64,000 bases of DNA from Ochotona princeps (lineage: Eukaryota), in assembly GCF_030435755.1 (NCBI RefSeq), contig NC_080855.1:24722445-24786444 (forward strand), in the 5' to 3' direction. Below, piece by piece: positions 4,531 through 63,645 of the stretch. Positions within the stretch are counted from its first letter, which is position 1. Each line of letters begins with the position of its first letter. The position numbers and the translations under genes were made by a program. Under the pieces are notes generated by a model. It made no database searches. It saw nothing but the letters and a program-made list of their open reading frames with translations, and was not told the origin of the DNA.

Positions 4531-4771
4531 TTGGGTTGTTCATTAAGGAAGAATTAAGCTAATTCATCTAAAGTGCTTAGAACAGCATCCTATGCTTGGC
4601 TAAAGTGTTCATATACATCCCCCACTTTGCAGATGAAATTTCTGCATGACTGGATCAGCTAACTGGCCCAAAGTCAAGTTAATGAGAGCTTCAAATCAAA
4701 GTCTGATTCCAAAGTGCATTACGTCAGCTTGCAGGCCCCCACAGCACCTTTACTTTGTTTTTTGTTTTAAG

Positions 4772-11084: not shown

Positions 11085-12930
11085 AATAATTACATGGTTG
11101 ATCGAGGTTTAAGGAAAATTGGGTGAATTCATTGTTTCCAAATTTGCTATTTCTTCTTGCTGTTCCTGGGGGAAGGGGGGAGACAAAGGGGAAGACCACT
11201 CATGACTTTCCACAAGTCCCAGTACCCAGGAATGAGAAACCACCACCTCACATCAACCCAGTGTGTACATATTCCAAGTGTTCTGTCCAAGTGGTTTGGA
11301 TAGTTCTGAAATGCTGCCAGCTTCACCCTCCCAATGATGTCACCCTCCCAATATCCATTGGCTCCATTCACTGAGATTTTTTGCTGTCATCATTTGTTTG
11401 GGGTAGTTGTCCAGTTAATTCTGTTCTGCTACAGCACCAAATGTGCTGCCATATTCTTCTCTTACAACAGGGCTTGTGTCCACTGCTCCACCTTTTTCAT
11501 TAAGTGGGGCATGTTCTTGCAGGCAAGTACAAGTACCTAGACCAGGAGTCCCAAGCATCACCGGATCCCCAACCCCTGAAACCCAATATCCTCCTGGGAC
11601 AGGAGACCCAACCTGTGCCTAATCCCCCACCCCTGGGGCTCATGAACCTGACACCCACCTAGTAGGTGAACCCTGGGACCTGGGCCAAAAAACCCAAGCC
11701 CTGCCAGATCCCCCACCCCTGGGGTTTACCAACACCCACCTAGAAAGTGGGGCCCAGGCTTACAACTCACCTCACCTCAGCATCTGCAGTCTTATTGCAC
11801 AGCCTGGCCTAGTCTAGTCTGCCTGTCGTTCCAGCTCCTGTTGGTGGGTGCTGTAGCCTATGCCATCCCAGCCTGTCTTGGTTATAATGTGAGCTGGCAG
11901 TTATTGCAGCCCGATCTGGCTCCTTCTACCCACTGCCCTGGTTCTCAAATCTGCCAGTGGGTGTGCTGGCCCAGACTAGTCTGTCCCCAGACCTGACCCA
12001 CATGTACACCAGCAGATACTGTAACCTGGCATGATCTGGGCTGCTCCTTGCCTTACTTCTGTGCTCCCCTGCGGAGGCTGCGTCCCAATGAAGGAGTTTC
12101 CTAAGCTCCTCCATCGAGTCTCCTCCCAGTGGTAGTTCTTGCATACACCATTGGGTTATTGACCCAGGTTGACTTTGTCCACCTCCTGTCCTGATACGAA
12201 CAACCGGCCACACCCATTCTGGCTCTTGTTGGGTGTTACAGCCCATTGCTACCTGGTCCGTGCCCAGACACAGCTTTCACATAGTTCAGAAGAGCCAAGA
12301 CCTAGTCTGGCCTATTCTACACCCAACCTGGCTCTCACAGGTACCAGTGGGGGCTGGAGTCAAGCCCGATCTTCCACCGTACCGGTACACACCCACACCA
12401 GTGCATTCTGTAGCCATGTACAGCCACACCTGCTGCCCTCAATTCTATTCTCATTCTCACCAGTTGGAACCCCAACCCAGCTGGAGTACCCGCTTAGCTC
12501 CCCAGCAAGGCCTGACCCCATCTGCAGTTCTTAGGTGAGCCAGCGAAGATTGCAGCTCCACATTTGTGAGTCCACATTGCCTCCACAGATTCTATCAGTC
12601 CTACTTCTCTCACTCTTGTTTTCCGCTCCAAACCACTTTGGTGTCGGTTCCCTACATACATACACATGTCATGGACTTGTCAATGGAAGTCCCTCAGTTG
12701 TAATTCCTAACCTAGGCATAAAAACTACAGGTCATCTCCTACTGCACTTGTGTGATCCCAGCATCCCCTGTAAATCAAGACCCTCTAATCGTGAGGGTAC
12801 GTTCCTAGGAGGCCTGAGGGGCTTTGCCCAGCACCTTTGGTGCCCGAGCCAACAGCTACTTGCCCCTAGCCAGTCAAATAATCTAACCTCCAGGATGGGG
12901 TGATCTTGGAGCCCCACCAAGCTTCCCTCC
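11085..12930 (+). repeat. Composite repeat copy A: ~470 bp head (ttacatggttgatcgagg…) + degenerate ~75 bp tandem array
   Basis: The head is homologous to 21000-21590, 49650-50110 and (reverse complement) 54300-54990. The array carries the recurring core …accagtgggtgctgNagccNggcc…tctgtccccag…ccagctcNcatgct…. Confidence 0.6.
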
Positions 12931-13227: not shown

Positions 13228-13375
13228 TTTTTTTTTTTTTTAATTTAGTTATTTTACTTGAGTTTCAGAATGACAGATAGAGGTGGGGAGAGATAGATCT
13301 TTCATCCATTGGTTCATTCCTCAAATGGCTGACATGGCCAGAGCTGAGTTGATCTGAAGTCAGGCGCTTCTTTCT
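13228..13375 (-). mobile_element. C-repeat SINE fragment, antisense (tail end)
   Basis: 15-T tract + …ggttcattcctcaaatggctgacatggccagagctgag. Confidence 0.6.
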
Positions 13376-14251
13376 TTATCCTTGGATCTGTGAGATCAAC
13401 AACATTTCAGAACTAACGGGACCACTTGAACAGAACCCTCAGAGCATGCTCCACATCAGGGACCCTGGGATGACATCAAGGTGGCCATACCCCATCCCCA
13501 GGTACTGGGGCAGTTGGGAGGCTGCATGTGGCTTTTCTTCTCTTCCCTCCCCCCAAATATAGAAGATAAAGGGGAAAAAATTGATAGTTATCAGCGACTT
13601 GGGGAAGGTTGGATGGAGAAAGGCAAGATGAAACTCAGAGCATGCAGAATTTCAGAGGAAACAGATAAGCTTTAGTGATCCTGTAGCGTGGAATGGGGAG
13701 GATAATCAGAATTGCTGAAAGTCGATTTTAGTGTTTTCAGCACAAATGAGTGTTTGAGGCCGCGGCTTTGTCAGTTTGGTTTAATCCTTCCATTTGGTAA
13801 TGCATGAGCACATCACACCATCTTGATGTTCTGTTGTATTTCTATCTCAGTAAAAGATAAAGTAGACAATGGCATAATATTCTGTTCCATGGAAGTGACT
13901 ATTTGAAGCAATAAAGTCATTGTTGTAAAAACAGCCAGTGGTGAGTTTATTTTTACAGTGTTGATATTTCTTTACAAAATTACATGTCTGTAGCTGTTAT
14001 CTTTGTCTAATGGGGAATATGACTTTGACATTCCCTGTGACACAAAGAAATTAACTGCCTACCAAACCTCGAAACTGCCAGCATTTGAGAGCCCTAAATG
14101 TGATTTCCAAAACTGCTTTACCGGACTCTGTCGCCCTATTCTAATGCTTCCCCTGGATTCTAACCAATCCCTGATACACTGGTGCCAACCAAAGATGAAA
14201 GTGTGTCTACCTTGGAATTTCCTTTTGAAAAAATTATTTTTACTTTTTTAA

Positions 14252-20913: not shown

Positions 20914-20962
<49 letters not shown>
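20914..20962. repeat. (TG)n microsatellite, ~24 units
   Basis: tgtgtgtgtg… uninterrupted. Confidence 0.9.
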
Positions 20963-20965
<3 letters not shown>

Positions 20966-20994
20966 ACATCGTTGACCAGGGTCAGAAGAGTGGA

Positions 20995-22950
20995 GGACTA
21001 GAGGACAGCGGGTGAAATCATTGTTTCTAAAATTTCCCTTTCTTCTTCCTGTATCTGGAGGAAGGGGAAAGATTAGGAAAGAAGCTGTACTCAGCATCCC
21101 AACTGCCCCAGTACCCAGGGATGGGGTACGACCACCTGATGTTATCCTGGGGTCCCCTAAGTAGAGCTGCTCCCAGGATTCTGTTCAAGTGATTTTGATG
21201 TTCTGAAATGCTGTTGATTTCATTACTCTGAGGGTGAGGATATCCTTTAAGGTCCATTCACTGAAATAGTCCACCTTAGGGTCTCCATTTGCCCAGATAT
21301 TTGCTGTCAACGCTTGCCTGCAGGAGTAGTCCAGTTTGTTTTGCCCTCCGTCTTCTGCTATGGTACCAGATGTTCTCTGCAGGCCCCAACAAACCATCAC
21401 ATCCCCCATGTGCATTTGGGCATGCCATCCACTTGTCTGTCTTAGCCACTGAGGAGGCCCAGTTCTGACACATGTACTCCATGGTCAGACCACAGATCCT
21501 ACAATTCTCCCCAAGGTTGGAGCTCTGAGTCCAGTTGTTCAGTTGGGCAGAATCCCCAAACAATCCTCATCTGAGTGGTCCCAGACCTGACTCTTGTGTG
21601 TGCTTGCCAGTATGGAGTCTGGCTCAGTCTGTCACCCACATCAGCCTACACACATACTGTTAGTTGCAATTGCTGGGTCAGTTCTGTCTCCAGCCCCATC
21701 TCGTATTAAACCAATGGATACTGTAGCCCAGCCCAACCCTACCCACCACACACTTGGCTCTCATGTACACCAGAGTGAACTGCAGCCTAGTTGGAGTGAC
21801 CCTATAACCCCCACTAGGCCTACCCGGGCCTGGTTCCTTGCCAGTATGTGCAGCAGACTGACCCAGTCTGTCCCACATCCCATTCATCTCTCTCTCTCTC
21901 TTTTTAAAAGATTTATTCATTTTATTACAGCCAGATATACACAGAGGAGGAGAGACAGAGAGGAAGATCTTCCGCCCGATGATTCACTCCCCAAGTGAGC
22001 CGCAATGGGCCGATGCGCGCCGATCCGAAGCCAGGAACCAGGAACCTCTTCCGGGTCTCCCACACAGGTGCAGGGTCCCAATGCATTGGGCTGTCCTCAA
22101 CTGCTTTCCCAGGCCACAAGCAGGGAGCTGAATGGGAAGTGGAGCTGCCAGGATTAGAACCGGAGCCCATATGGGATCCTGGGCTTTCAATGCGAGGACT
22201 TTAGCCGCTAGGCCACGCCACCGGGCCCATCCCATTCATCTCTTGCACACGTCAATGGGCATTGAAGTCTAGCTCAACCCAACTGTCCCCACTATCCAGC
22301 TGACACTTATGCTGGTAGGCCTGCCCCCAGCCCTGGTTCTCATGTTCAATAGTGGGAGTTGGAGCCCATCAGAGAGGTGCCCAGTTTCCCTACTGGACCC
22401 ACTCCCCACCCGGGATCTCATACTTCTCAGGTGGTTCTGCAGTCTAGATTGACAAGACTTGCCCCCAGTCCCAAAACTTGCCAGCTGATCCTGCAGCCAA
22501 GCCCAACCCACCTGTCCTTACTCTGGCTCATGCCTACACCAGTGGATACAATGGGTTAGTTCAGCCTGGCTCTCCCGCTAACCCAACTCACATGCAGATT
22601 AATAGGTGTTATATCCCTGTCGAGCCTGGTCTGCCCTCAGTCCCAGTTCTCATGCTCACCAGTGTGATTAGTGGCCCAGTGGTAGAGCACCCCCCACCAC
22701 AGTCTCCTACCAGGCTCATACCGCCCCCATACCAGTCTCATGTTTGACCAGTGGGTGCTGCAGCCAGTCTGGAATGGCCTGCCTCATCTTGGTATTTGCC
22801 TGTGGGTGCTGTAGCCTGGCTGGGCCTAGTCTGTCCCCAGTTCCAGCTCATGCTAGTGGGTGCCGATGTTGAGTTATCTTTTCTTGAGTTATCCCAGGGA
22901 CATCAGCAAGGAGCAAGATCAGAAGTAGAGCAGCTGGGACTTGAACCAGA
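20995..22950 (+). repeat. Composite repeat copy B (head 21000-21590 + array), interrupted by a nested C-repeat SINE at 21900-22228
   Basis: Same head-plus-array organisation as copy A. The SINE insertion is bounded by the TSD atcccattcatctct. Confidence 0.6.
21900..22228 (-). mobile_element. C-repeat SINE, antisense, nested in composite repeat B; TSD atcccattcatctct
   Basis: TSD at 21876-21890 and 22229-22243. The body is near-consensus. Confidence 0.9.
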
Positions 22951-32932: not shown

Positions 32933-33697
32933 ATGCCTTCGACTGCACAGCAGCCCTCCGGGCAAACGGAGATGCCCGCTGAGCCCGAGGCAGCCGTCCT
33001 GTGGCCCTCACTGCCATGCGGGCCCTGCATTCCCATCATGCTGGCCCTGGCCTCCCTGGCCGCCTTCTTCCTGGTGACCACAGCCGTGCTGGCCGAACGC
33101 CTGTTCCGCCGCTCGCTGCACCGAGCCCCCGGCCCCGACTCGCCCACGCTGGTGTGGCGCCCGGGCGGAGAGCTGTGGATCGAGCCCCCCAGCTCGGCCA
33201 GGGAGCGTTCCGAGGACTGGTACGGCTCCGCGATGCCGCTGCTGACTGATCGGGCGGTTGACCCGCCCACCCCGGGGGGCACCTTGGAGGCCCGGGCCAC
33301 GGCGCCCCCCGCCCCTCTGGCATCGCACTCCGTTGCTCCCAGTTCCTTGCTGTCCATGACGACCGCTCCTACCGTCCCGGCCCCCTGCACCTTCTGGGGG
33401 TCTCACCCATGGGAGGAGAGACCCCACCAAGCGGGCCTGGTGCGCTGGTCGGAGCCGGAGCCGGAGCTGCGGCCATCGCCGGCTCCGCGGCCATCGCCGG
33501 CTCCGCGGCCATCGCCTGCCCCGCGGCCATCGCCTCCACTGCCATCCCCACCGGCCCCGAGGGGTGGCGGCCCCCAGCCCTGGAGGCCACGACCCGGGAG
33601 CCCTGAGCCCGACTGGAGCCTGCAGCCCCGGGTCACACTGGAGCAGATATCAGCCTTCTGGAGGCGAGAAGGTCGGACCAGCAGCGTGGGATTCTGA
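32933..33697 (+). CDS. C16orf54: C16orf54 ortholog (small single-pass transmembrane protein). Complete CDS in one exon, 254 codons, stop TGA 33695-33697. The ATG immediately follows a splice acceptor (ctccttcccccag|ATG).
   Basis: Translation MPSTAQQPSGQTEMPAEPEAAVLWPSLPCGPCIPIMLALASLAAFFLVTTAVLAERLFRR…TLVWRPGGELWIEPPSSARERSEDWYGSAMPLLTDRA…GTLEARATAPPAP…RVTLEQISAFWRREGRTSSVGF matches the human C16orf54 protein as recalled from memory. The memory-based points are the PWPSLPCGPCIPIML…TAVLAERLFRR TM region and the C-terminal LEQISAFW(K/R)REGRTSVGF. The ORF-track start at 32867 is an upstream in-frame Met, probably not used. Confidence 0.8.
   Translation: MPSTAQQPSGQTEMPAEPEAAVLWPSLPCGPCIPIMLALASLAAFFLVTTAVLAERLFRRSLHRAPGPDSPTLVWRPGGELWIEPPSSARERSEDWYGSAMPLLTDRAVDPPTPGGTLEARATAPPAPLASHSVAPSSLLSMTTAPTVPAPCTFWGSHPWEERPHQAGLVRWSEPEPELRPSPAPRPSPAPRPSPAPRPSPPLPSPPAPRGGGPQPWRPRPGSPEPDWSLQPRVTLEQISAFWRREGRTSSVGF
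33470..33556 (+). repeat. C16orf54: In-frame 18-bp tandem repeat (~4.5 units) encoding (PSPAPR)n inside C16orf54
   Basis: ccatcgccggctccgcgg repeated. Protein reads RPSPAPRPSPAPRPSPAPRPSPPLPSPPAPR. Confidence 0.8.
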
Positions 33698-36139: not shown

Positions 36140-36275
36140 TGTGCATGAACGCTAGCTGCGTGAATGAATCCCACTGCGCTAGCTGCGTAGATGAACGCCA
36201 ACCACGTGAAAGAAGCCCACTGCGTTAGCTGCGTGGATGAAACCCACTGAGTTAACTGCATGAATGCCGCTTTTC
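36140..36275. repeat. Minisatellite, ~30-bp unit x4 (CACTGCGYTAGCTGCGTRGATGAAnCC)
   Basis: actgcgctagctgcgtagatgaacgcc / actgcgttagctgcgtggatgaaaccc / actgagttaactgcatgaatgcc, in tandem. Confidence 0.6.
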
Positions 36276-41860: not shown

Positions 41861-42616
<756 letters not shown>

Positions 42617-46199: not shown

Positions 46200-46960
46200 G
46201 GTGAGCTGTGAGCCGTCAGGGACCTGTGCAGGGCACACGGAAGGGGCTGGTGATTGCGGAGCCCGGTGCCCGCCCCATGTCTCCTGCCTCCTCTCCGGCC
46301 CCTCCTCCCCCCTCCTACTGCAAGTCAGGAACAGACTTTGCCCCCACCTCTGAGCTGTCGACAAGCAACAAAGTCCAGGGCTGTCCCTGCGCCAAGCCCC
46401 TCTAGCCCCTAGGCCACTTTCGGCCCAGCCCTATTCTGAACCACTCTAGCCCCTCTCCTCCCCAGAGAGGAGCTCTCCAGGGCCCCAACACAGCAGGAGC
46501 AAGAAGGGCCGAGAGGCCTGGTGCAGGGGGAGCTGGGGTGGGACTGTGACGTGGGTGGCAGGAGGCAGAGGGAGGAGAATAGCCGGAGTGCGCAGGGCAC
46601 AGGCGGTCCTGCAAGATTAGGAGAGGGGCTGGGGGAGCCGGGGCACAAGGGAGCAGGTGGCCCTGTACCTGCTGCATCCATGATGACTCGGGCTGCTGGC
46701 TGGCGTGTCCACTGCTGGGATCCTCTGACCCAGTGGTGGGGCTGAGGCCAGAGCCGGGGGTGGGGCTGCCAGAGGAAGGGGCTGGTCCAGCCGGCAGGGT
46801 CAGCCTTTCAGCTTGCTGGGCCCTCCCCCTGTCCTCCCTGGGGACCCTGGCACGTCCATGGCTTGGAGAGCCAGTAGCCCTGTTTCTGCCTGGCTCTGCC
46901 CAGAGCACCAGGCTGGGAACAGGGGAGCTGGGCTGTGCCCTGAGTGAGGGCTGCACGCCT
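46200..46960 (-). promoter_or_regulatory. QPRT: CpG island / putative QPRT promoter and 5'UTR
   Basis: GC- and CpG-rich, with GC boxes. Contains the QPRT start codon exon. The long minus ORF here is low-complexity Pro/Ala/Ser. Confidence 0.55.
46669..46681 (-). CDS. QPRT: QPRT first coding exon: ATG GAT GCA GCA G (M D A A, phase 1), donor |GTACAG; 5'UTR lies in the CpG island
   Basis: Joined to exon 2 this gives [18 protein letters not shown] (human MDAEGLALLLPPVTLAAL). Good Kozak context (atcATGG). A ~4.1 kb intron follows. Confidence 0.65.
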
Positions 46961-47345: not shown

Positions 47346-47539
47346 CTCAAACACTTTTTTAACCTTTTGAAATTGTTTTTTTCCATCTAAAATTTTCAAT
47401 TTTATCGTACAATTCTGTATAGTCTGGGATTGTCCTCCCCCAGTCCACCCTCTGACTGATTTTTCCCCTATTGTCACAACAGTACATTTTTTCATAAGAA
47501 GCTACAATTCCATCAGCCTGCTATTTAAGTGTGCCCCAA

Positions 47540-49215
47540 CATTGCTGCTACAGACAATGTCAGACAGTCCGTCATCCCATTGCAGTCCACCTGGGGGTTG
47601 GTCCCCAAAGAAAGCCTGCCAGACGTGATCCCAGACCTGACTCCTATGTGTGCCAGCCAGTGCAAGGTTTGGCTCAATCTGTCACCCACATCAACCTACA
47701 CACACACTGGTAGGTAGAGTCGCCAGTCAGTTCTGTGCCCAGCCCCATCTCATATATAAACCAGTGGATGCTATGGACCAGCCCATCTCTGCCCACCACA
47801 CACTTTGCCCTCACACATACCTGAGGGAACAGCAGCTCAGTCAGAGTAACCCCCAGGAATGCCCAGCAGGCTTGTCTCTAGCTTCATTTCCTGTGCATGC
47901 TGGTATATGCTGCAAACTGGTCTAGTCTATCTTGCATCCCATTTGCCTCTTGTACACATTAGTGGGTGTTGCAGCCTAGCTCAGCCTGACCCACCTCACT
48001 ATCCAGTCTGCATGTATGCAGGTGGGTGCTGCCATCTGTCCAGCCAGGTCCAGCCCCAGCTCTGCTTCTCTTGCTCACTGGTAGGAGCTGCAGCCCATCA
48101 GAGGGATGCCTACAACTTCCCTACTAGGCCCACTCCCAGCCCCATATCTTGCCCCTTCCAGGTGGTACTATGGTTCAGTGTGACAGGACTTGCCCCCAGT
48201 CCCAGCATTTGCCAGCAGATGTTGTGGCAAAGCCTGACCAGCCTGCATCTACTGTGGCTCATGCGTGCAGCAGTGGGTATGTTGCTTAGCCCAGCCTGTC
48301 TCTCCCCCTAAGAGCTCATACGCAGGCCCCTACCGGGCTTACCCCTCTCTCTTTCGGGGTCTTGTGTATGTTGGTGGGTGCCATGGCCAAGCCCACCTCA
48401 CTGGCCTTTGCAAGTAGGTGCTGAAGCCTGGCCCAGCTTGGCCTGTACCCAGTTCCAGCTCATGCTTTGGGTACTACAGCCTAGCCCAGTCCAGCCAGTC
48501 CCCATTCCTGGCCCTAATGTGAACCACCTAGTGTTATAGCCTGAGCTGGCCTGTCCCACACCCCTTCTCGTAACTGCCAGTAGGTGCTATGAACTGGCCC
48601 AGTACAGCCTGCTCCCAGATCAGAGCCACACATATGTTGGCAGGTACTGTAACCTGGGCTGGTTTGCTCCCGGTCTCAGTTCTTGGGTTCACCTGTAGGG
48701 ACTGTGTCCTGACAGAGGAGTTCCCCAATCTCCTCTAACAGGTCTTCTCCCAGTCACAGATCTTGTGCATTTGGTTTGGTTCTTGGCTTTGGCTGACTTG
48801 GCCCACTTCCTGTGCTGGCTACAGCAGCCTTGTCCAACCAGGCCACACCCACTCCGGCTCTTACTGTTAGATGCCACAGCCCAGCCCCATGTGGCCCATC
48901 CCCAGACTTGGTTTTCATGTGCTTCACTGGGTACCAGGCCAAGCCCAGCCTGTCCTACACCCACTCTGGCTCTCACAGGCACCAGTGGGTGCTAGAGCCT
49001 AGGCCAGTATGCAACATCCCAGACCTAGTCTACACCTATGCCGTGGGATACTTCAGCCATGTCCAGACCAATCTGTCACCCCATTCCAGCTCTCATGCTC
49101 AGCAGTGGGAATCACAGCCAAGCCAGGACATCTCCTTAATTCCCTTGCCAGGTCCACTCTCGGCCACAGATCTAGCACACTTTGTTTCTCCTTCTCTCTG
49201 TAAATCTGCCTAGCC
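47540..49215 (+). repeat. Composite repeat copy C (5'-truncated head + array), directly upstream of copy D
   Basis: Head 3' part (…ccccaaagaaag…cccagacctgactc…gtcacccacatca…) then the array. It shares the internal segment ctgtagggactgtgtcctgacagaggagttcccca with copy D (51130). Confidence 0.55.
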
Positions 49216-49218
49216 AAA

Positions 49219-49220
49219 TT

Positions 49221-49252
<32 letters not shown>
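49219..49252. repeat. (AC)n microsatellite, ~16 units
   Basis: acacacacac…. Confidence 0.9.
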
Positions 49253-49254
<2 letters not shown>

Positions 49255-49649
49255 GAGGCTACAGTCCACCTGGCTGTCCTCCAGGGAATCACAGAGCTTG
49301 GTGTCAAGGCTGTAGCTGGGCACAGCCCCAACTCCATTCTCCACTGGCCCTTGGGCATAGCTGATGCCCACTCGGGATCTTCTGGGCCCGAGGAGCGCCG
49401 TCCTGCCAACAACCCAGAGAGACTCTGCCCGAGCCCAGCACACTCGCCTGCCTACGGTCAGCCTGACCAGCTGCTTCAGGCAATTGAGCTGCTCCTTCAG
49501 GCAGCGTCAGCAGCCCATGGGGCTCAGGCTGGACAAAGCAAGGGATGGCCTGGGGCTCTGACATCAGCCCTGACCCTGGGTAGACTGTACACAGAAGGGG
49601 TGTGGGTTGGGGGCACCAGAAGGCCAGCTCCTGTATTTTTTAAAATTAT

Positions 49650-51500
49650 ATTTTTGACAATCTTTACATAGTTAATTAGGGTAAAAAGGTACAAGGGCTA
49701 TAGGAAAGTGGGTAAGAGTATTATCTCCATATCGTTTCCTTCATATATCTGAGGTAAAGGGAATATTGAGGGAGAAACCCCACCTAGTCTCCCACCTACC
49801 TCAGGTCCCGGATGTGGAGCATGCTCTGAGATACTTGCTCAAGTGGTTTTGATAGTTCACCAGTTATGAATCACTGCCAATCTCGCCACTCCAAGCATGA
49901 TGAGGTCATTGAAGAATCCACTGATTGACATAGTCCATCATAGAGTCTCCATTTGTCCAGTACTTCGCTGCCAACATATAGCTGAGGTGGTTGATTGACC
50001 TGTTCTGTCTTCCGTCTTTTCTTGGTTAGGGTTCTGAGTCTGCCATTTCGATTGGGGAGATCCCCAAAGAAAGTTTGAAGTGTTCCCAGACCAGATTCTT
50101 GTATGTACTAGCAAGTACAGGGCCTGCCACAGTCCATCGCCCTGATCAGCTGGTGGTTGCAATTGCTGGGTTGGTTCTGTTTTCAGCCCCGACTTCCACT
50201 GGAACCAATGGGTGTTGCAGTCCAGCCTGGTTCTGCCCAGCACATACTCGGCCCTCACATAAACCAGTGGGAGCTGCAGCCCAGTCAGACCGACCCACAA
50301 TAACCCCCACCAGGCCCACCCCCACCCTGGTTTACCAGTATGTGTAGCAGACTACTCCAGTCTGCCCCATATCCCATTTGGCTCACATACATGTCAACAG
50401 GCACTGAAGCTTAGTTCCATCTAACCAGCTCAACCATCCAGCCCTCACAGATGTTGCTGAGTGTCTCTCTGTCCAGCCACTCCAGCCCCTTTCCTAGTTT
50501 TTTGTGCCCTCCAGCGGGAATGGCAACCCAAGAGGGAGGAGCCCACTGTTTCCCTCCCAGTTCTCTCTCACTCCCAGACCATGCACTCTCCAGGTGGTTC
50601 TGTAGTTTGACTTGACAGAATTAGCCCCCCATGCCAGCTTCTGCCAGCTGTTGCTGCGGCCAAGCCCCAACAACCCTCACCCACTCTAATTTTGTTTGCA
50701 CCAGTAGGAATAATCCGCCCATCCTGGCTTTTCCCTGATCTAGTCCACATGAGGCGCACAGGTGCTGTAGCCCTGCCTAGTCTGGTCTGCCCCCATCCCA
50801 GCTCATGCTCTCCAGTGGGTGTAGCCGTCCAGCAAGGGAACCACCCCTTATTCCCCTACAGGCTCTGCCCTCTCCCTTCCTGGTTCTCACGTGTGCTGGA
50901 TGGGTGCTGCAGTCACATCTGGTACAGGCAACCTCACCCTGACATTCCGCATTGTGGACTGGTTTTTGTTGCGACCTAACCCGGCCCGACCCACACTCTG
51001 TTCTGGTGCTCGGATTTGCCAATGGATGATGTGAACTGCTTCAGCTTGGTCTGCCCTTGACCCATGCCAAATGTATGCCAGTGGGAAACTTTCCATGGCC
51101 TATTCTGGGCTGTTTCCTATCATGCTTCTTGCACTTACCTGCAGGGACTGTGTCCTGCCAGAGGAGTTGCCCAGGCTCCTCCATCAGAACCCTCCCAATG
51201 CCAGATTTTGCGCATAACAGGGGTCCATGAGCCAGCCCTACTCAGTTCACCTCCTGTCCTAGTAGGAACAGTGGCTTGTCCTGACTGGCCTTCAACCCAA
51301 GCTGGTTCCTGCTGTTGGATGATTCAGCCCAGCCATGGCTCGTCCGTACCCACATACAGCTCACACATGGCTCAGTAGGGGCTGAGACCTAGCCTAGTCC
51401 GTCCCACATCTACTCTGGTCCTCCAGGACACCAGACGGTGTTGGGGTCTGGCCGGCTTGGTGCGTCCAGTCCCAGTCCACACTTGTGCCAAGGGAAACTA
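49650..51500 (+). repeat. Composite repeat copy D (full head + array)
   Basis: Head ctttacatagttaattaggg…ccatcatagagtctccatttgtccag… then the ~75 bp array to ~51480. Confidence 0.6.
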
Positions 51501-51639
51501 AAAGTGTTTCCTGACCAGAATGACAGCTTCTGTATTTTTAATACTGATGCTTAGGCACACTGGGAAAAAGATGATTCATTTAGGGGCTTTTCGGGCCTTG
51601 GTGGGAGCCTCACTTGGGGAGGGGGAGGGGCACAAAGAG

Positions 51640-51760
51640 GACCAAGGAGCCAATGGGTTTCAGAGGGGCAGAGGACGGAACACTGGGCCTGCTGTCTCCA
51701 GGCAACCCCATTGTCTGCTGCCTATATAAAGCCCCAGCATGCCTTGCTCTGGCAACACTT
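51640..51760 (+). promoter_or_regulatory. Promoter-like module: GC box (gggagggggagggg ~51617), CCAAT box (agccaatggg ~51652), TATA box (ctatataaag ~51723)
   Basis: Canonical spacing CCAAT to TATA is ~70 bp. It lies upstream of the ORF 51989..52417. Confidence 0.4.
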
Positions 51761-51988
51761 GGTGGGATTGTCAGACCAGTTTAGCACCCCGCACACAAAC
51801 ACGTCCTGGCGATAAGCTGGCCTACGCTCCAGCGTACACAGCTTTCTGGGACTGCTAGGATGTCCCATGGCTCTACTTTGGAGCTATGTTTTATATTTTG
51901 TTGAAGTGGTGCTGAGGAGGGACGTGAAAGAACATCAAGATGAGACTACGGCATTTTGCTGACAGAGCTCTGAACACTGTTCCAGATC

Positions 51989-52417
51989 ATGGAACAGAAG
52001 AACAAATTATTAGCCGATTATCAGAACACCTTAAAGGAGAAAGATGCCAAAATAAGAGACCTCCACACAAGGCACACAGCTCTGTTGAGCGACCGAGAGA
52101 AAATGGAGCCTCTCACTGATCCTATAGACGGGAATTCCAGCGCCGACAAGGTACCATCCGCTGCAGTGAAACACACCATCCAGAAACTGCCAGCAGAGTT
52201 GGCAAAGGAAGTTCCCCAAATCCTCAAAACTCGTGACCAGTCTAATTCAACAACAGGAGATGCCTTAAGTCAGCTCCAAGGTTTGGGAGAGGCCTCCAAC
52301 AAATCCTCAGGAGAAGGAACATGTGTCACCTGGAGAGAGCCTTTGAAAGACCTCCATGAGGAATTGAAGAGCCTGAAAAGATCCTTAGTGGCCAAAGACG
52401 AAATATTGTTAAGATAA
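51989..52417 (+). other. Unassigned intronless ORF, 142 codons (MEQKNKLLADYQNTLKEKDAKIRDLHTRHTALLSDREKMEP…LHEELKSLKRSLVAKDEILLR*). Possible first exon or retrocopy fragment.
   Basis: ATG-initiated, AT-richer than its surroundings, not a repeat. It is ~230 nt downstream of the TATA/CCAAT module, ends 8 bp before a SINE, and has a possible internal donor GACAAG|GTACCA (~52148). No homolog recognised from memory. Confidence 0.3.
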
Positions 52418-52429
52418 AGATAAACAGAG

Positions 52430-52660
52430 GGACCCGGCACAGTAGCCTAGAGGCTTAAGTCTTCGCCTTGCACCTGCCAGGATCCCATATGGGTCCCAGT
52501 TCATATCCTGGCTGCTCCATTTCCCATCTAGTCCCTGCCTGTGGTCTGGGAAAGCAGAAGACGGCCCAAAGCCTTGGGACCCTGTACTCACATGGGAGAC
52601 CCAGAAGAAGCTCCTGGTTTCATATCAGGCCAGGCCAGGCTATAGCATCCGATGGCAAAG
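52430..52660 (+). mobile_element. C-repeat SINE, sense, 3'-truncated
   Basis: gggacccggcacagtagcctagaggcttaagtcttcgccttgcacctgccaggatcccatatgggtcccagttcatatcctggctgctccatttcccatc. Confidence 0.8.
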
Positions 52661-55010
52661 GCTAGGTGATGGGTTATGCTGGAATGGGTTGGAGCAACCT
52701 CCAGGCATATGCAAGATCTGTGGCTGGGAGCAGGCCTGTTTGGGGAGCTAAGGGACACTCCAACTGGGCTGTGGTACCCACTGGTGAGTGTGAAAGCTGG
52801 AATGGGGGTGATGATCTGGGCTGGACATGGCTACAACATCCCTCAGCATGAGTGTGAACCGGGTCTGGGATGTGCCAGACTGGTCTAGGCTCCAATACCT
52901 GATAGTCTCATAAGAGCCAAGGTGGATGTAGAACAAGCTGGATAAGATCTCTGCACCTGCTGAGCCATGAGAGAGCTAGGTCTGGGAGTGTGCCATGTGG
53001 ATCTGGACACCCAATGATAAGAGCTGCAACAGGTGTGGGCTGTTCAGGCAAGGCCATTGTATTGCTGGGACAGGAGGTGGGCCAAGTCAGGCTAGGTCAA
53101 GAATCTACCCATGTGTAAGAAATCTGCAACTGGGAGGTGACATGCTAGAGAAACTTGAGGAACTCCTCTGTCAGGCACAGTGCATGCAAGTAAGTGTAAG
53201 AACCAAGGCTGGGAGTAGCCCACATCAAGGCCAGGTTACAGTACCCACTAGCATACATGTAGGTCAGGTCTGAGGGCAGACCAGGCTCAGCCAGTTCATA
53301 AAACCAACTAGCATTTATGAGAAACAGGGTGGGATGCAGGACAAGCAAGGCTGGGCCACAACACCCACCAGTTTACATTAAGGTCGGGACTGGGGGATGG
53401 TGAGCTGGACTAGGCTTCACACCTGCCAGTATGAGCTGGAAGTGGAAGTAGACTGGCTGAGCCAGGCTGTAGCACCTGGTGGTGAATGCCAAGGTGAGGT
53501 GAGTCATGCCGATCTGGGACACAGCTCCCACCAGCACTCATAAGACCCCAGAATGGGGATAAGCCCGGTAGGGGGGTTTTGGGGGCTATCCTGCTGGTGA
53601 ATATGACAGCTGGAACTGGGGCAGACCAGACTAGGCAGGGCTACAAAAGCCACTGACCTGCATATGAGCTGGGTTAGGGGGAGAGACAGGCTGAGCTAAG
53701 CAACCGTATCTACTGGTGTACCATATCTAAGTATAAGTGGGGGCTGGTCAGGCTCTGCCGCAGCATCAGCTAGCAGGTTTTGGGACTAGGGGCAAGTTCT
53801 GTCAGGCTAGACCACAGAACCACCTGGAAAGTGCAAGATCTGAGGCTGAGCATGGGACTAGTAAGTAAGGAAACTGTGGGCAACTCTCTTATATGCTGCA
53901 GCTCCCACCAGTGAGTATGAGAACTAGAGATGGGGCAGGCCTGGCTGAACAAGCAGGCAGTGTGAGCTGGATAGTGAGGTCAGTCAGGCTGAGTTAGGCT
54001 TCAATGCCCAATGATGTGTACAAGAGCTGAATGGGATGCGAGACAAACTGGACCAGTTTGCTGCACATACCAGCATGTACAGAAAGCAGGGCTGGAGGCG
54101 GACCTGGTAAGGGTTATTGGGGGTCATTCCAACTGGGCTGCAGTTCCCACTAGTGTGCATGAGGACAAAGTATGTGGTGGGCAGGGATGAGCCTGGTTGT
54201 AGCATCCATTGGTTTGTATTTGAGATGGAGCTAGGGACAGAACTGACCCAGCAACTGCAACCACCAGTGTTTGAGTAGGTTAATATGGATGTTGTACTGA
54301 GCCAGACCCCACACTGGTTGGCACACACAGGAATCAGGTTGGGGTCACCCCTAGGAAGATTTTTTGGGGGGAACCACCTCCCAACTGGATCACTGGACTC
54401 AGAACTCCACCATGGTGAAAATCACAGGGTCTGTGGTCTGACCGAGCAGCACATGAGTCAGAACTGGGTCTTGTTCATTGCTGAGGCCTGTGCAGTGGAC
54501 AGCATACCCAGAATGCACCTGGGGAACATGACAACCATCCATTGAAGGCCTGCAGAAATGTCTAGTACCATGGATGGCAGTATAAATCGAACAGCTCTCC
54601 CAGCCAAGTTTTGACAGCGAGAATCTGAGCAAATCAAGACTCTAGGGTGGATTATGTCAGCCAATGCACCTCGGAAGGATTTCCTCAACCTTGGGGCAAC
54701 GAAATCAACAGCATCTCAGAACGATCAAAACCGGTTAACGAATATCCTCGAAACATGCTCCTTATCGGGGCTCCTGGGATGTTACCGAGTGCTCATCCCC
54801 CATCCGCCGGCACTGATTTGGTTGGGCTGCCGAGGAAGGGCCTTCTCTCCCCCACACCCCCAGATATAAGAAGAAAAAAGGAGATTGGGAACAATTGTCT
54901 CATCTACTTACTTATACCTCTACCCTCCCCACCGTAGTCAGTGGTCCACAGGCATGTATCCCTCCTAACTATGTAAACATCATAAAAAATAAAATGAATT
55001 TATTATTTAA
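52650..55010 (-). repeat. Composite repeat copy E in inverted orientation (array 52650-54300, head 54300-54990)
   Basis: Reverse complement of the head is clear (…ctgtggtctgaccgagcagcacatgagtcagaactgggtc… vs copy B). The terminus …cctaactatgtaaacatcat matches the head start ttacatagtta in the + copies. Confidence 0.6.
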
Positions 55011-56303
55011 CAATAAGAGAAAACGGATCAAAGATATGAAAATTTTAAAAAAGATTAATCACTTTCTTTTGTTTGCAACAAACATGGTATTACAAGCACT
55101 TCCGCAGTGGTCACCTGGCTTTCAAAAACATAATTGTGAGTGATCTTGACAAGTATGGGAAGTCATGTGCAGCCATTGCCATAACTGACGTATTTAGTCC
55201 GATCACCATCTTCTGTGCTTCCTACTTGTTTCTCTCAGTCCTGCTCTTTGAAATCTTAGAGCATCTACCTTGGCTCTGGTTTTCACTCATCCAAATGAAC
55301 TTGAACATGGAATTCCAGGCAGCACAGTAGCCACCAGGAATATAACAGCGACGGAGGCAAAGAGCTCACCAGCTGCCCCGCCCCTCTGCCCCCATCCCAC
55401 CATCACTCCCTTCGGAAGTGTGGTGTGAGTCTCTATTTCAATATTTACAGTACATTTCATATTTTCTTTGCCCTGAAATCCCAGACCACCCCACCACCAT
55501 CACCCACCCTGCTTCCTTCAGCACCTAGAAACCAGCCACAGCAGACAGGCAGCACCGGGGCAGAGGAGGAGCTGCTGGGCTCCCAGCACAGTCACTGGAG
55601 CTGCCAAAACTGAAATGGTGACACTTGGTTTGGTAAATGTCAACCACGAGTTGCGGTAGGTCCAAGGGACTTTTCCAGCTTACTTCTGCTATGCAAATAA
55701 ACACACCATGTGAGAACTAGGGGAAGGTGGCCAGCGCTTTACCCGCTGCCCCTGGGGTGCCTACCCCAGCTAGCAGGAGGCCAGTTTGCTCCAAGGCTGG
55801 GCCCCACAGGGTTGAGGCAAGTGGACCTGAGGCCTCTTCTACCCCCTTGTCTCCCCTTCTAGCTCTCGCTGTTCCTCAGTCTGACCACCTGGTCCTCCTA
55901 AGAAGCCTCCAGGCTTTCTAGGTTAGTTGGAATACTGGTGTGATACCAATTACTCTGTCTCAACAACTTCCTCTTTGCAAATTTCCTCTGGGTCCTGGGC
56001 AGCTAGCAAAGTCCTCTGGCCCACATCATATCCCGGCGGCTCTCAGCATACCCCGGGGAAGGAGGTGGGGGGATGATCTTAGTCTCTCCTCACTAGTTCA
56101 GAAACACCCCCCCCCCCATGGCCTGACAACTCCAGCTTCTTTCCTCTCCTGGTTGGCCTTCTCACTGCTTGCCCTAGGAGGAGGGAGAGAGGTCAGCTCC
56201 TGAAAGCACAAAAAAGGCAGCCAGACCAACAGCAACCTGAGCATCTAAGAGAGGCAGGGTCCCACAGCACTGAACCCCCACTGCAGGCTGCCTCCCTGCC
56301 TCT

Positions 56304-57419: not shown

Positions 57420-58922
57420 TCACAAGCGGGGAGGCTCAGCCCCAGGCCCCGCTGCTGGCCCATTGGAAGTAGGGGCGTCAGCAGCCTCTTCCTCGCAACC
57501 CACCAGCGGCTCCTCCTCTTCCCCCATAGGGCCGGGGCCTGACCCAGGCCTAAACTCCTCCAGAGCCACCGAGCTCTGTCGAGACTTCCGCCGACCAAAG
57601 AAAGTGCTGAGCGTGGGCAGCTGACCAGACTCCTCCACCTCGGGGGTTCCCGAGGCTTTGGGTCCCCCCGACTCTCCTGCGATTGTTAGCACAGCCTCCT
57701 CATCGGCAACCCTCACTGGCCCAGCCCAGGCATCCACAGCACCGTTGTATTTTCCGCTTGTGCTTAGAGTCAGGACGCCAGTCCGCCGCTTCTGCCGCCG
57801 GCGCCAAAACAGGAGCAGGGCCAGGAGAAGTATGACCACCAGCACAGCCACCAGCATGGCCACCAGCATCATGCCACCCATCTCTGGCTGCACGCTCGTG
57901 TTTCCAGAGGGCTCCTTGGTAGTCACCACAGCAGTTTCTACCCTAGTGCCAGAGGTCTCCAGGGAGCTAGGGACCACGGTGATAGGGTGACCATTGGTTG
58001 CACTGGTGGTCTCCACAGAGCTACTTGCCATGGTGGTAGGGAATCCACTCATCTCATTGGAGGTCTTGGAAGAGCTGGTTGCCATGGTGATGGGGATTCC
58101 GCTGCTCCCACCGGGGGTCTCCACAGTGCTGGTTGCCATGGTAATGGGGATTCCGCTGCTCCCACCGGGGGTCTCCACAGTGCTGGTTGCCATGGTGATG
58201 GGAGTTTCCCTGGTCCCATCCTTGGTCTCCACAGAGCTGGTTGCTATGGTGATGGGGGTTCCACTGCTCCCACTGGGGGTCTCCACAGAATTGGTTGCCC
58301 TACTGATGGGGGTTCCACTTGTCTCACTGCTGGTCTCCACAGAGCTGGTTGCCATGGTGACGGGGGTTTCACTGGTCCCCCTGGTGGTCTCCACAGTGCT
58401 CATTGCCATAGTGACAGGGAATCCACTCGAACCCTGAGCTGGACGTGAAAAGGACAGAGTGCCTTCAGGGGCCTTTGGGGTGGCCATCATGGGCATGCTC
58501 TCCCTGGAGACGGGAGAGGTCCCTGAGGTACTGGTCACCGTGGTGATAAGGTGTCCGCTGGGCTCACCAGAGGCTGCTGGGGTTACTAGAGGAGAGCTGG
58601 TCATCGTCGCTGGAATGTGGGATCCCTGAGAACTCGCTGCCACGGGGACAACAGGCTCCCTGGCCACACTGGAAGTCTCAGGGTATATGAATGACTTCTC
58701 AGAGGAAACTTCCTGGGAGGTTTTGGATTCAGGTGCCAGGGAGCTACCGGGGGACTCACTCTCACCGTCTCTCGAGTTGGCCTTCCCAGAGTCCATTACG
58801 GCCAAACTGGTGGAGGAGATGGAAGGCACGGTATTTGACGGTGAAATGGAGAACAAGGCCTGGGAACTCACCACTCTGGGGGCCCAGGAACCCCCAACAA
58901 GAAGGAGGAGGAGCAGGGCCAT
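57420..58922 (-). CDS. SPN: SPN (sialophorin / leukosialin / CD43) complete CDS in a single exon: signal peptide, mucin-like Ser/Thr-rich ectodomain with 18-aa repeats, TM (GMMLVAMLVAVLVVILLLALLLFW), conserved cytoplasmic tail
   Basis: The ORF 57420..58946 (508 codons) starts at TTG in the track. The true start is probably ATG 58922..58920 (MALLLLLLVGGSWA…), and an acceptor ccccacctgcag| lies ~35 nt upstream, as in human SPN (non-coding exon 1). The tail RRRQKRRTGVLTLSTSGKYNGAVDAWAGP…LPTLSTFFGRRKSRQSSVALEEFRPGSGPGPMGEEEEPLV matches human CD43 RRRQKRRTGALVLSRGGKRNGVVDAWAGP…RPTLTTFFGRRKSRQGSLAMEELKSGSGPSLKGEEEPLV. Confidence 0.9.
   Translation of the reverse strand: MALLLLLLVGGSWAPRVVSSQALFSISPSNTVPSISSTSLAVMDSGKANSRDGESESPGSSLAPESKTSQEVSSEKSFIYPETSSVAREPVVPVAASSQGSHIPATMTSSPLVTPAASGEPSGHLITTVTSTSGTSPVSRESMPMMATPKAPEGTLSFSRPAQGSSGFPVTMAMSTVETTRGTSETPVTMATSSVETSSETSGTPISRATNSVETPSGSSGTPITIATSSVETKDGTRETPITMATSTVETPGGSSGIPITMATSTVETPGGSSGIPITMATSSSKTSNEMSGFPTTMASSSVETTSATNGHPITVVPSSLETSGTRVETAVVTTKEPSGNTSVQPEMGGMMLVAMLVAVLVVILLLALLLFWRRRQKRRTGVLTLSTSGKYNGAVDAWAGPVRVADEEAVLTIAGESGGPKASGTPEVEESGQLPTLSTFFGRRKSRQSSVALEEFRPGSGPGPMGEEEEPLVGCEEEAADAPTSNGPAAGPGAEPPRL
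57942..58433 (-). repeat. SPN: Coding tandem repeat in SPN: ~9 units of 54 bp (18 aa, e.g. GSSGIPITMATSTVETPG)
   Basis: Units: GSSGFPVTMAMSTVETTR / GTSETPVTMATSSVETSS / ETSGTPISRATNSVETPS / GSSGTPITIATSSVETKD / GTRETPITMATSTVETPG / GSSGIPITMATSTVETPG / GSSGIPITMATSSSKTSN / EMSGFPTTMASSSVETTS / ATNGHPITVVPSSLETSG. Confidence 0.85.
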
Positions 58923-63340: not shown

Positions 63341-63524
63341 TCTTCTTTTCAGGTCTGTTGTAATGGTCACCTTTGTGACCCTATTCAATATTTAGCTTTG
63401 GTGTCAGACCCTGTGGTGCAGTGTGGCTGAGTGGCTAGCTATAGCTTTCAGTTTTAGCTTTTTAAAAAAAAAAAAAAATTTATCTAAAAAAAGAAAAAGG
63501 AGGCTGGGTATGGCTCCTTCCCTT

Positions 63525-63645
63525 AACTCCTCCCTTCCCCCAGAAACAGGAAGAAGAAGTAGAAGATTTGGAAACAATGACCATACCCACTTTTCCCTAA
63601 CCCCTGACCCTTCCCACGCTGATCAACTATGTAAACATCATCCAA
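63525..63645 (-). repeat. Fragment of composite-repeat head terminus (copy F)
   Basis: cccccagaaacaggaagaagaagtagaagatttggaaacaatg…ctatgtaaacatcatcc matches the copy E end cccccagatataagaagaaaaaaggagattgggaacaattg…ctatgtaaacatcat. Confidence 0.45.

What the first reader, a model, noticed from the sequence alone, without database searches (positions are those of the whole stretch)
47540..55010. Locus-restricted cluster of an unclassified composite repeat (550-bp head + ~75-bp degenerate tandem array), including a tandem pair and an inverted pair between QPRT and SPN
Copies C (47540-49215, +) and D (49650-51500, +) are adjacent in tandem and share an internal marker segment (ctgtagggactgtgtcctgacagaggagttcccca / ctgcagggactgtgtcctgccagaggagttgccca). 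Copy E (52650-55010) is the same element inverted, so D and E form a ~2 kb inverted repeat around a ~1.1 kb unique segment. Further copies sit at 11-13 kb (A), 21-23 kb (B) and a fragment at 63.5 kb. Five to six copies within 64 kb, all intergenic or intronic, look more like local low-copy repeats or segmental duplication than a dispersed high-copy TE. Human 16p11.2 is noted for LCR-mediated rearrangement, so a comparable substrate here is worth attention. The alternative is a novel lagomorph element with subterminal tandem repeats. It is not a C repeat, and it does not begin or end with a TG…CA dinucleotide pair.
Basis: seen in the sequence. Interest (0 to 1): 0.6.

Follow-up and report, generated by a model that had tools for sequence, protein, structure and literature searches.

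The report
Old poly(A) retroposon copies in pika
The repeated blocks are real, but they are old, separately inserted copies of a 2.3-kb non-coding LINE-dependent retroposon in the American pika (not rabbit), and they are far too diverged to act as rearrangement-prone duplications.

Summary
A profile search finds seven fragments (A, A2, B, C, D, E, F) totalling 8,973 bp, 14% of the window. Three corrections apply.

- The element reads the other way round. A degenerate tandem array of about 1.65 kb (24-26 units) is 5', and the ~600-bp unique "head" is 3'.
- The array period is about 60 bp, not 75.
- The window is Ochotona princeps: the QPRT exon is 100% identical to pika and 87% to rabbit.

All five preserved 3' ends run into A-rich tails. 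Copy D is flanked by a 26-bp target-site duplication (23/26) at a TT|AAAA site. Three copies share one 5' end and flanks never align. Neighbouring copies are not each other's closest relatives (K2P 0.36-0.59). The longest exact match between any two copies is 28 bp.

This is therefore a non-autonomous, L1-type retroposon family, not a set of local duplications or low-copy repeats. No L1 ORF1 or ORF2, Pfam or Rfam signal was found. The rabbit and hare SPN-QPRT loci carry no copy.

Its layout resembles SVA, but it is not an SVA. Genome-wide copy number could not be tested, so the high local density is unexplained. Interest is low to moderate.

The parts
52706..54985 (+). Copy E. The only full-length copy, about 2.27 kb: a 5' degenerate array of ~60-bp units (about 52712-54360), a ~600-bp unique 3' region, then an A-rich tail at 54977-55016.
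   Evidence: nhmmer profile positions 4-2321, score 2358. 17 unit hits at E<=0.01 among 26 listed hits. Tail is 57% A and 90% A+T. No target-site duplication found.
49641..51513 (-). Copy D. Profile positions 124-2316 with small internal deletions and a short A-rich tail.
   Evidence: nhmmer hits at 51525-50021 and 50020-49660. Highest CpG o/e of the copies, 0.22.
51514..51539 (-). 5' target-site duplication of D, AAAAATACAGAAGCTGTCATTCTGGT, preceded by ...CAGTATT. The target therefore reads TT|AAAA.
   Evidence: Local alignment of the two flanks scored 17 against a null mean of 6.9; 0 of 300 shuffles reached it. Junctions printed.
49615..49640 (-). 3' target-site duplication of D, AAAAATACAGGAGCTGGCCTTCTGGT (23/26 identical to the 5' copy), directly after the A-rich tail.
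47582..49192 (-). Copy C. Complete 5' end and array; the last ~570 bp (the unique 3' region) is missing.
   Evidence: nhmmer profile 4-1748, score 1650. The adjoining 234 bp (47346-47581) shows no similarity to the canonical 3' region. A 45-bp C-SINE tail plus (AC)n abuts the 5' end.
22228..22865 (-). Copy B, 5' part. The copy is 5'-truncated at profile position ~739.
   Evidence: nhmmer profile 739-1394.
20958..21892 (-). Copy B, 3' part with a complete 3' end. The tail has become (AC)n. B is split by a later C-SINE insertion at about 21892-22227.
   Evidence: nhmmer profile 1378-2317. The SINE has a perfect 16-bp target-site duplication, CATCCCATTCATCTCT.
11699..12559 (-). Copy A, 5' part. 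Its 5' end is the same as in E and C.
   Evidence: nhmmer profile 2-900. 5' ends aligned.
11093..11520 (-). Copy A, 3' part, after an internal deletion of about 0.7-0.9 kb. Followed by a 40-nt tail that is 70% A and 100% A+T.
   Evidence: nhmmer profile 1812-2309. Tail composition.
13371..13582 (+). Fragment A2. Part of the unique 3' region (profile 2035-2257), inverted relative to A.
   Evidence: nhmmer E=1.2e-38.
63499..63640 (+). Fragment F. The last ~140 bp of the element with an A-rich tail, followed by a C-SINE.
   Evidence: nhmmer profile 2180-2314, E=8e-19. 3' end ...TCAACTATGTAAACATCATCCAAAATAA.

Best explanation
The blocks are copies of one non-coding, non-autonomous retroposon family of the pika lineage.

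A full-length element is about 2.27 kb. It starts at a fixed 5' end (G[C/T]NTNTGC[A/T]AGATCTGTGGC...). It then carries about 1.65 kb made of 24-26 degenerate ~60-bp units (core consensus GCTGCAGCACCCACTGGTATACATGAGAGCCGGGTCTGGGGGCAGGCCAGGCTG). This is followed by a ~600-bp unique region ending ...TCAACTATGTAAACATCAT, with an AATAAA-like signal and an A-rich tail.

Proposed mechanism: a master copy was transcribed, probably by RNA polymerase II, and polyadenylated. The RNA was copied into nicked TT|AAAA sites by target-primed reverse transcription using LINE-1 proteins supplied in trans.

Shown: discrete shared termini, A-rich tails at every preserved 3' end, one clear long target-site duplication at an L1-type target, lack of coding capacity, and independent insertion of the copies.

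Inferred: L1 as the driver, Pol II transcription, and the existence of a master gene.

The array was already degenerate when the family spread. Units at the same position in different copies are 64-75% identical, while units within one copy are about 52% identical. It is a fossil tandem array, not a currently variable one. The copies are old, CpG-depleted, mutually 61-73% identical, and inert as recombination substrates.
For: - Seven fragments found by profile search, E-values 0 to 1e-19.
- E, C and A share the same 5' end. E, D, B, A and F share the same 3' end. Flanks beyond these ends do not align.
- The 31-40 nt after all five 3' ends are 45-70% A. Only 1.4-2.7% of random 40-mers in the window reach that.
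- D has a 26-bp target-site duplication, 23/26, at ...TATT|AAAAATAC; 0 of 300 shuffles reached the score.
- No ORF longer than 132 codons in the consensus and no Pfam hit. No Rfam family.
- No L1 ORF2 or ORF1 similarity anywhere in the 64 kb. The same ORF2 probe does detect L1 fragments in the hare and rabbit loci.
- Unit model: 61 of 61 hits inside copies, 0 outside. Median spacing 60 bp.
- K2P distances between copies are 0.36-0.59 for pairs sharing at least 600 aligned columns, and neighbours are not the closest pairs. CpG o/e is 0.09-0.22.
- A C-SINE with a perfect 16-bp target-site duplication is inserted inside B, so B predates it.
- No copy in 21 kb of the hare or 31 kb of the rabbit orthologous SPN-QPRT locus.
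Against: - Only one of four copies with usable ends (D) shows a target-site duplication. E, A and B show none.
- C lacks the 3' end that a target-primed insertion should always retain, so a later deletion has to be assumed.
- About six insertions in 64 kb is a much higher density than expected for a family of modest copy number. L1-mediated retroposition has no known local preference.
- No copy from any other locus or species could be retrieved. A translated search of 5.8 billion proteins and one metagenome DNA scan both returned nothing. Dispersal across the genome is therefore inferred, not shown.
They were validated only by the positive hits.
Confidence: 0.75

Rival explanations
1. Local low-copy repeats or old segmental, tandem and inverted DNA duplications within the QPRT-SPN region. 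On this view the copies are potential substrates for non-allelic homologous recombination.
For: Seven fragments lie in 64 kb, and three of them within 7.4 kb as a tandem pair and an inverted pair. No copy was found in the rabbit or hare orthologous loci. Genome-wide dispersal could not be demonstrated.
Against: Flanks are unrelated beyond precise shared termini. D carries its own target-site duplication. All 3' ends have A-rich tails that differ in sequence. Neighbouring copies are not each other's closest relatives, and all pairs are at K2P 0.36 or more. The longest exact shared tract is 13-28 bp.
Confidence: 0.06
2. 5'-truncated 3' ends of an old lagomorph LINE-1 family with a very long, internally repetitive 3' UTR.
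For: Rabbit L1 3' UTRs are unusually long, 1.2-1.58 kb (PMC8346653, Table 1). I also recall, without checking, that 78-bp internal repeats were described for rabbit L1 (L1Oc). The A-rich tails and the L1-type target-site duplication fit an L1 equally well. B and D are shorter at the 5' end.
Against: Three copies (E, C, A) start at the same nucleotide position, which random 5' truncation does not produce. No copy continues into ORF2, and no ORF2 or ORF1 similarity exists anywhere in the window, although the probe works on hare and rabbit. The rabbit and hare loci contain an L1 ORF2 C-terminal fragment, presumably followed by its 3' UTR, yet the element profile finds nothing there.
Confidence: 0.1
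3. Solo LTRs or the non-coding internal part of an endogenous retrovirus, for example a non-autonomous ERV such as the rabbit OcuNERV.
For: The size of about 2.3 kb and the lack of coding capacity resemble OcuNERV (2.5 kb, PMC8346653). Internal tandem repeats occur in some LTRs.
Against: There are no terminal direct repeats within the element. There are no TG...CA ends. The target-site duplication is 26 bp rather than 4-6 bp. A-rich tails follow every 3' end.
Confidence: 0.03

Closest known systems
SVA, LAVA, PVA and FVA: the VNTR composite, L1-dependent retrotransposons of hominoid primates
   Same: Non-coding and about 2 kb. A G+C-rich internal tandem array sits upstream of a ~0.5-kb unique 3' module, followed by a poly(A) signal and tail. 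Long target-site duplication at an L1-type target. Many copies are full length with a defined 5' end. Found in a GC-rich, gene-dense region.
   Different: No (CCCTCT)n start, no Alu-like region and no HERV-K-derived SINE-R. Units are about 60 bp and were already degenerate before dispersal, rather than 35-50 bp and variable in number. The family is old and inactive. The host is a lagomorph, whereas the papers read here describe VNTR composites as specific to hominoids (PMC4432496, PMC7353768).
L1-dependent retroposons in the broad sense (processed retrocopies of non-coding Pol II transcripts; the 'Retroposon/L1-dependent' class of repeat libraries)
   Same: No coding capacity, an A-rich tail, a target-site duplication at TT|AAAA, and occasional 5' truncation.
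   Different: Ordinary retrocopies are single or few in number. Here at least six insertions of the same 2.3-kb unit lie in 64 kb, which implies an amplifying family.
LINE-1 3' ends (rabbit L1 families, 3' UTR 1.2-1.58 kb)
   Same: Same tail and same insertion signature.
   Different: No ORF2, a fixed 5' end, and no similarity to the L1-bearing parts of the rabbit and hare loci.
Lagomorph C repeats (CSINE)
   Same: Share the same insertion machinery signature, and are interspersed with and nested in these copies.
   Different: No sequence similarity. About 300 bp, tRNA-derived, Pol III.

Membership tests
L1-dependent non-autonomous retroposon | 3' end followed by a poly(A) or A-rich tail in independent copies | tested here: met
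   5 of 5 preserved 3' ends are followed by 45-70% A. Only 1.4-2.7% of random 40-mers in the window reach this.
L1-dependent non-autonomous retroposon | Target-site duplication of variable length, about 7-30 bp, at an A/T-rich TT|AAAA-like target | tested here: inconclusive
   Clear in D: 26 bp, 23/26, target TATT|AAAAA, 0 of 300 shuffles. Not detectable in E, A or B.
L1-dependent non-autonomous retroposon | No reverse transcriptase or other coding capacity of its own | tested here: met
   Longest consensus ORF is 132 codons. No Pfam hit. No L1 ORF1 or ORF2 similarity.
L1-dependent non-autonomous retroposon | Dispersed copies at unrelated genomic sites | not testable with these tools
   Within the window the flanks are unrelated. 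No pika sequence outside the window could be fetched.
SVA-type VNTR composite retrotransposon | (CCCTCT)n hexamer repeat and antisense Alu-like region at the 5' end | tested here: not met
   The 5' end is GCATATGCAAGATCTGTGGC..., followed directly by the array.
SVA-type VNTR composite retrotransposon | Central tandem-repeat (VNTR) domain | tested here: inconclusive
   24-26 degenerate ~60-bp units are present. They are positionally conserved between copies, so variable copy number is not shown.
SVA-type VNTR composite retrotransposon | 3' module derived from HERV-K (SINE-R) or another identifiable source sequence | not testable with these tools
   The 600-bp 3' region has no Pfam, Rfam or protein-database match. 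No mammalian DNA library was available.
LINE-1 (as a 5'-truncated 3' fragment) | Longer copies continue into ORF2; 5' ends are scattered | tested here: not met
   E, C and A share one 5' end. There is no ORF2 similarity in the window, and the probe is validated.
Solo LTR / ERV | TG...CA termini and a 4-6-bp target-site duplication | tested here: not met
   The termini are not TG...CA. D's duplication is 26 bp.
Low-copy repeat / segmental duplication able to mediate NAHR | Paralogous blocks of at least 1 kb at about 90% identity or more, with long perfectly matching tracts and co-duplicated flanks | tested here: not met
   Pairwise identity is 61-73%. The longest exact tract is 28 bp. Flanks do not align.

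The most novel reading that the evidence does not exclude
This would be an uncharacterised, Ochotona-lineage composite retroposon built like SVA (tandem array, unique 3' module, poly(A)). It would be a second, independent origin of a VNTR-type L1 parasite outside hominoid primates. It would also show a strong regional insertion or retention bias, at about six insertions per 64 kb of GC-rich, gene-dense DNA.
Probability: 0.2. Interest if true: 0.5.

Novelty: new member of a known kind. Interest (0 to 1): 0.3.

Why it matters
If the family is confirmed genome-wide, it would show that L1 can be parasitised by long, array-bearing non-coding RNAs outside apes. Such elements can also persist unrecognised once they are mutated, a difficulty for repeat classification that Storer et al. 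point out explicitly (PMC9025800).

For this locus the practical message is negative. The three elements fill 5.8 kb of the 10.6-kb pika SPN-QPRT spacer, which is 7.3-7.6 kb in rabbit and hare with no copy of the element. However, they are too diverged to promote 16p11.2-type rearrangements.

The result also corrects the species assignment of the window.

Tried and rejected
- **TRF**, at default settings and at minimum score 30, found no array in the copies. The periodicity only appeared with autocorrelation and an iterated unit HMM.
- **Translated search.** Consensus ORF pieces of 80 or more codons (10 pieces, 1,030 residues) were joined into one query against 5.8 billion proteins, in the hope of catching repeat-derived ORFs from other loci. 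There were no hits.
- **Pfam** on six element and spacer ORFs gave nothing above noise.
- **Rfam** at E<=1 gave only one sub-threshold snoRNA chance hit.
- **Bacterial promoter/terminator scan** was not informative for a mammal.
- **Exact-protein look-ups** of the window's SPN and of the pika QPRT (P0121) were not on record, so no extra pika DNA was obtained.
- **One metagenome scan** with a 23-base degenerate pattern from the best-conserved block gave 0 matches.
- **The 142-aa ORF** between D and E gave 0 hits in 1.84 billion representative proteins.
- **Target-site duplications** for E, A and B were not found.
- **A hidden alternative 3' module** in the 234 bp next to copy C was tested and showed no similarity.
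- **HAL1, OcuNERV, solo LTR, DNA transposon and L1 3' UTR** were considered. HAL1 (no ORF1 similarity), OcuNERV and solo LTR, and the L1 3' UTR were rejected on the tests listed under membership. A DNA transposon was rejected because inspection of the termini shows no terminal inverted repeats.


Full report

Yes. A self-comparison of the window shows a high-copy ~300-bp SINE, the lagomorph C repeat.

A MAFFT alignment of five copies was turned into an nhmmer profile and searched back against the window. It gave seven fragments:

| Copy | Coordinates | Strand | Profile positions |
|---|---|---|---|
| E | 52690-54958 | + | 4-2321 |
| C | 49192-47582 | - | 4-1748 |
| D | 51525-49660 | - | 124-2316 |
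| B | 22865-22228 and 21892-20958 | - | 739-2317 |
| A | 12559-11699 and 11520-11093 | - | 2-900 and 1812-2309 |
| A2 | 13371-13582 | + | 2035-2257 |
| F | 63499-63636 | + | 2180-2314 |

Together they cover 8,973 bp, 14% of the window.

**2. Anatomy, and the corrections it requires**

*Termini.* Three copies (E, B, D) end at the same position on the "head" side, and the ends printed show the same terminus in A and F. Three copies (E, C, A) end at the same position on the array side. Beyond both points the sequences stop aligning. This is a discrete unit of about 2.27 kb, and E is the only full-length copy.

*Orientation.* The sequence after the "head" terminus is A-rich in all five copies that keep it:
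- E: ...CTATGTAAACATCATAAAAAATAAAATGAATTTATT
- A: ...CCATGTAATTATTATTAAAAAATAATAATAAAATAAAAATTT
- D: ...CTATGTAAAGATTGTCAAAAATATAATTTTA
- F: ...CTATGTAAACATCATCCAAAATAACTTTAAAG
- B: ...CGATGTAAAA(CA)n

These stretches are 45-70% A. Only 1.4-2.7% of random 40-mers in the window are that A-rich.

*The tandem array.* TRF sees nothing. Autocorrelation gives a weak peak at lag 59 in E and C. An iteratively built unit HMM finds 24-26 units in E and 10-22 in the others. At E<=0.01, all 61 hits in the whole window lie inside the five large copies on the expected strand, and none lies in the remaining ~54 kb.

The core consensus is GCTGCAGCACCCACTGGTATACATGAGAGCCGGGTCTGGGGGCAGGCCAGGCTG. The median spacing of adjacent units is 60 bp, range 46-88, not about 75.

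Units within one copy are only about 52% identical to each other. The array regions of different copies align in register at 64-75% identity for most pairs. The array had therefore already decayed in the source sequence before the copies were made.

**3. How the copies arose**

Copy D is flanked by AAAAATACAGAAGCTGTCATTCTGGT (51539-51514) and AAAAATACAGGAGCTGGCCTTCTGGT (49640-49615). These match at 23 of 26 positions. The alignment scored 17 against a null mean of 6.9, and 0 of 300 shuffles reached it. The upstream flank reads ...CAGTATT immediately before the duplication, so the target was TT|AAAA. From established knowledge, that is the preferred nick site of the LINE-1 endonuclease. A long target-site duplication that begins with A's, plus an A-rich tail, is the signature of target-primed reverse transcription.

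No such duplication was detectable for E, A or B. That is unsurprising at their divergence, but it does leave the case resting on one copy plus the five tails.

The element has no coding capacity:
- The longest ORF in the consensus is 132 codons.
- Six ORFs gave no Pfam match.
- A translated search with joined consensus ORFs found nothing in 5.8 billion proteins.
- Rfam found nothing.

The same ORF2 probe did find L1 fragments in the hare and rabbit loci, so the probe works.

**4. Independent insertions or local duplications?**

Flanks are unrelated. Each copy has its own truncation or deletion: C lacks the last ~570 bp, A has an internal deletion, B is 5'-truncated and split by a SINE, and D starts at profile position 124.

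K2P distances are 0.36-0.38 among E, C and B, and 0.45-0.59 for pairs involving D or A. The physical neighbours C-D (0.53) and D-E (0.54) are more distant than E-B or C-B, which lie 25-30 kb apart. Local duplication predicts the opposite.

All copies are strongly CpG-depleted (o/e 0.09-0.22) with a TG+CA excess of 1.4-1.6 in the five large copies.

D's target-site duplication is only about 12% diverged (3/26, with a wide confidence interval), and D has the highest CpG o/e. Part of D's distance from the other copies may therefore reflect a different source subfamily rather than age.

The C-SINE inside B has a perfect 16-bp target-site duplication. This shows that B predates that SINE insertion.

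**5. Could the copies drive rearrangements?**

The longest perfectly matching tract between any two copies is 13-28 bp, and D versus E is 63% identical. From general knowledge, homologous recombination between paralogues needs hundreds of bp of near-identity. The 16p11.2-type scenario is not supported.

**6. Species and comparative context**

The window's SPN protein is only 52% identical to rabbit and 58% to hare leukosialin. The QPRT exon (42547-42047) is 100% identical over 178 residues to Ochotona princeps QPRT and 87% to rabbit. The window is American pika.

The hare locus (L001, 21 kb, SPN to QPRT) and the rabbit locus (L002, 31 kb) contain no match to the element profile, and the rabbit locus, the only one searched with it, has none to the unit model.

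Orthologous anchors place rabbit 4580-4761 opposite window 55448-55284, and rabbit 9841-10047 (around QPRT exon 1) opposite window 46850-46641. The spacer from the SPN stop codon to QPRT exon 1 is 7.3 kb in rabbit, 7.6 kb in hare and 10.6 kb in pika. Of the pika spacer, C, D and E make up 5.8 kb. At this locus the insertions are thus specific to the pika side of the lagomorph split, or were lost in leporids.

**7. Comparison with known families**

*L1 3' end.* Rabbit L1s have long 3' UTRs, 1.2-1.58 kb (PMC8346653). However, three identical 5' ends, no ORF2, and no similarity to the L1-bearing leporid sequence argue against an L1 3' end.

*ERV-derived.* OcuNERV-type non-autonomous ERVs (2.5 kb with two 500-bp LTRs, PMC8346653) and solo LTRs are excluded. 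The element has no terminal repeats, D's duplication is 26 bp, and every 3' end has a tail.

*SVA-like.* The layout most resembles the SVA/LAVA/PVA/FVA VNTR composite retrotransposons: tandem array, ~0.5-kb unique 3' module, poly(A), and mobilisation in trans by L1. The papers read here describe those as specific to hominoids (PMC4432496, PMC7353768). This element lacks the hexamer, the Alu-like region and SINE-R, so it is an analogue, not a member.

[quoted passage not shown] That describes the present situation.

**8. What remains open**

I could not reach any pika sequence outside the window, nor any mammalian repeat library. Three things are therefore untested: whether the family is dispersed genome-wide, how many copies exist, and whether Repbase or Dfam already holds it.

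The local density of about six insertions per 64 kb is high and unexplained. It implies either a very abundant family or a strong regional bias towards GC-rich, gene-dense DNA.

**9. Verdict**

The segmental-duplication/LCR interpretation is rejected. Interest is low to moderate.

Noticed in passing
window 42047-42547 (QPRT exon) and 57420-58922 (SPN): The window is from the American pika, Ochotona princeps, not rabbit. The QPRT exon is 100% identical to the pika protein and 87% to rabbit. SPN is only 52-58% identical to rabbit and hare leukosialin.
   Followed up: yes
window 51989-52417 (+), with upstream motifs at about 51640-51730: A 142-codon K/E/L-rich ORF sits in the 'unique' spacer between inverted copies D and E. 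It is preceded by CCAAT-like and TATATAAAG motifs and ends where a C-SINE begins. It has no Pfam family, no hit in 1.84 billion representative proteins, and no DNA match in the rabbit locus (the hare comparison was run only at a strict cut-off). It may be an orphan gene, a lncRNA exon, or chance.
   Followed up: partly
window 21892-22227, with duplications at 21876-21891 and 22228-22243: A C-repeat SINE is inserted inside copy B with a perfect 16-bp target-site duplication, CATCCCATTCATCTCT. This gives a relative order of events and shows SINE activity well after the element's spread.
   Followed up: yes
L002 5675-6050 (rabbit) and L001 14675-14743 (hare): Both leporids carry an L1 ORF2 C-terminal fragment in the SPN-QPRT spacer. 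The pika window has no detectable L1 coding remnant at all in 64 kb.
   Followed up: partly
window 58001-58427: The 54-bp x 7.9 tandem repeat found by TRF lies inside the SPN coding exon (minus strand) and encodes the 18-residue mucin repeats (...TPITMATSTVETPGGSSG...). It is unrelated to the element's array.
   Followed up: partly
window 32867-33697 (+), repeat at 33469-33534: A C16orf54-like single-exon ORF, recognised from memory of the human protein. It contains an 18-bp x 3.7 repeat encoding (PSPAPR)n.
   Followed up: no
window 47346-47581: 234 bp lie between the 3'-truncated end of copy C and an inverted C-SINE. They are unique in the window and unrelated to the canonical 3' region of the element. 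They lie about 0.5-0.7 kb upstream of the QPRT exon-1 anchor (46641-46850).
   Followed up: partly
window 52614-52683: About 70 bp directly upstream of copy E's canonical 5' end weakly match an internal part of the array (profile 764-836, E=7e-7). This could be an extra array unit or a remnant of another copy, cut by the SINE at 52416-52643.
   Followed up: no
window 36145-36266: TRF reports a 46-bp x 2.1 (or 27-bp x 4.6) tandem repeat. It was not examined.
   Followed up: no
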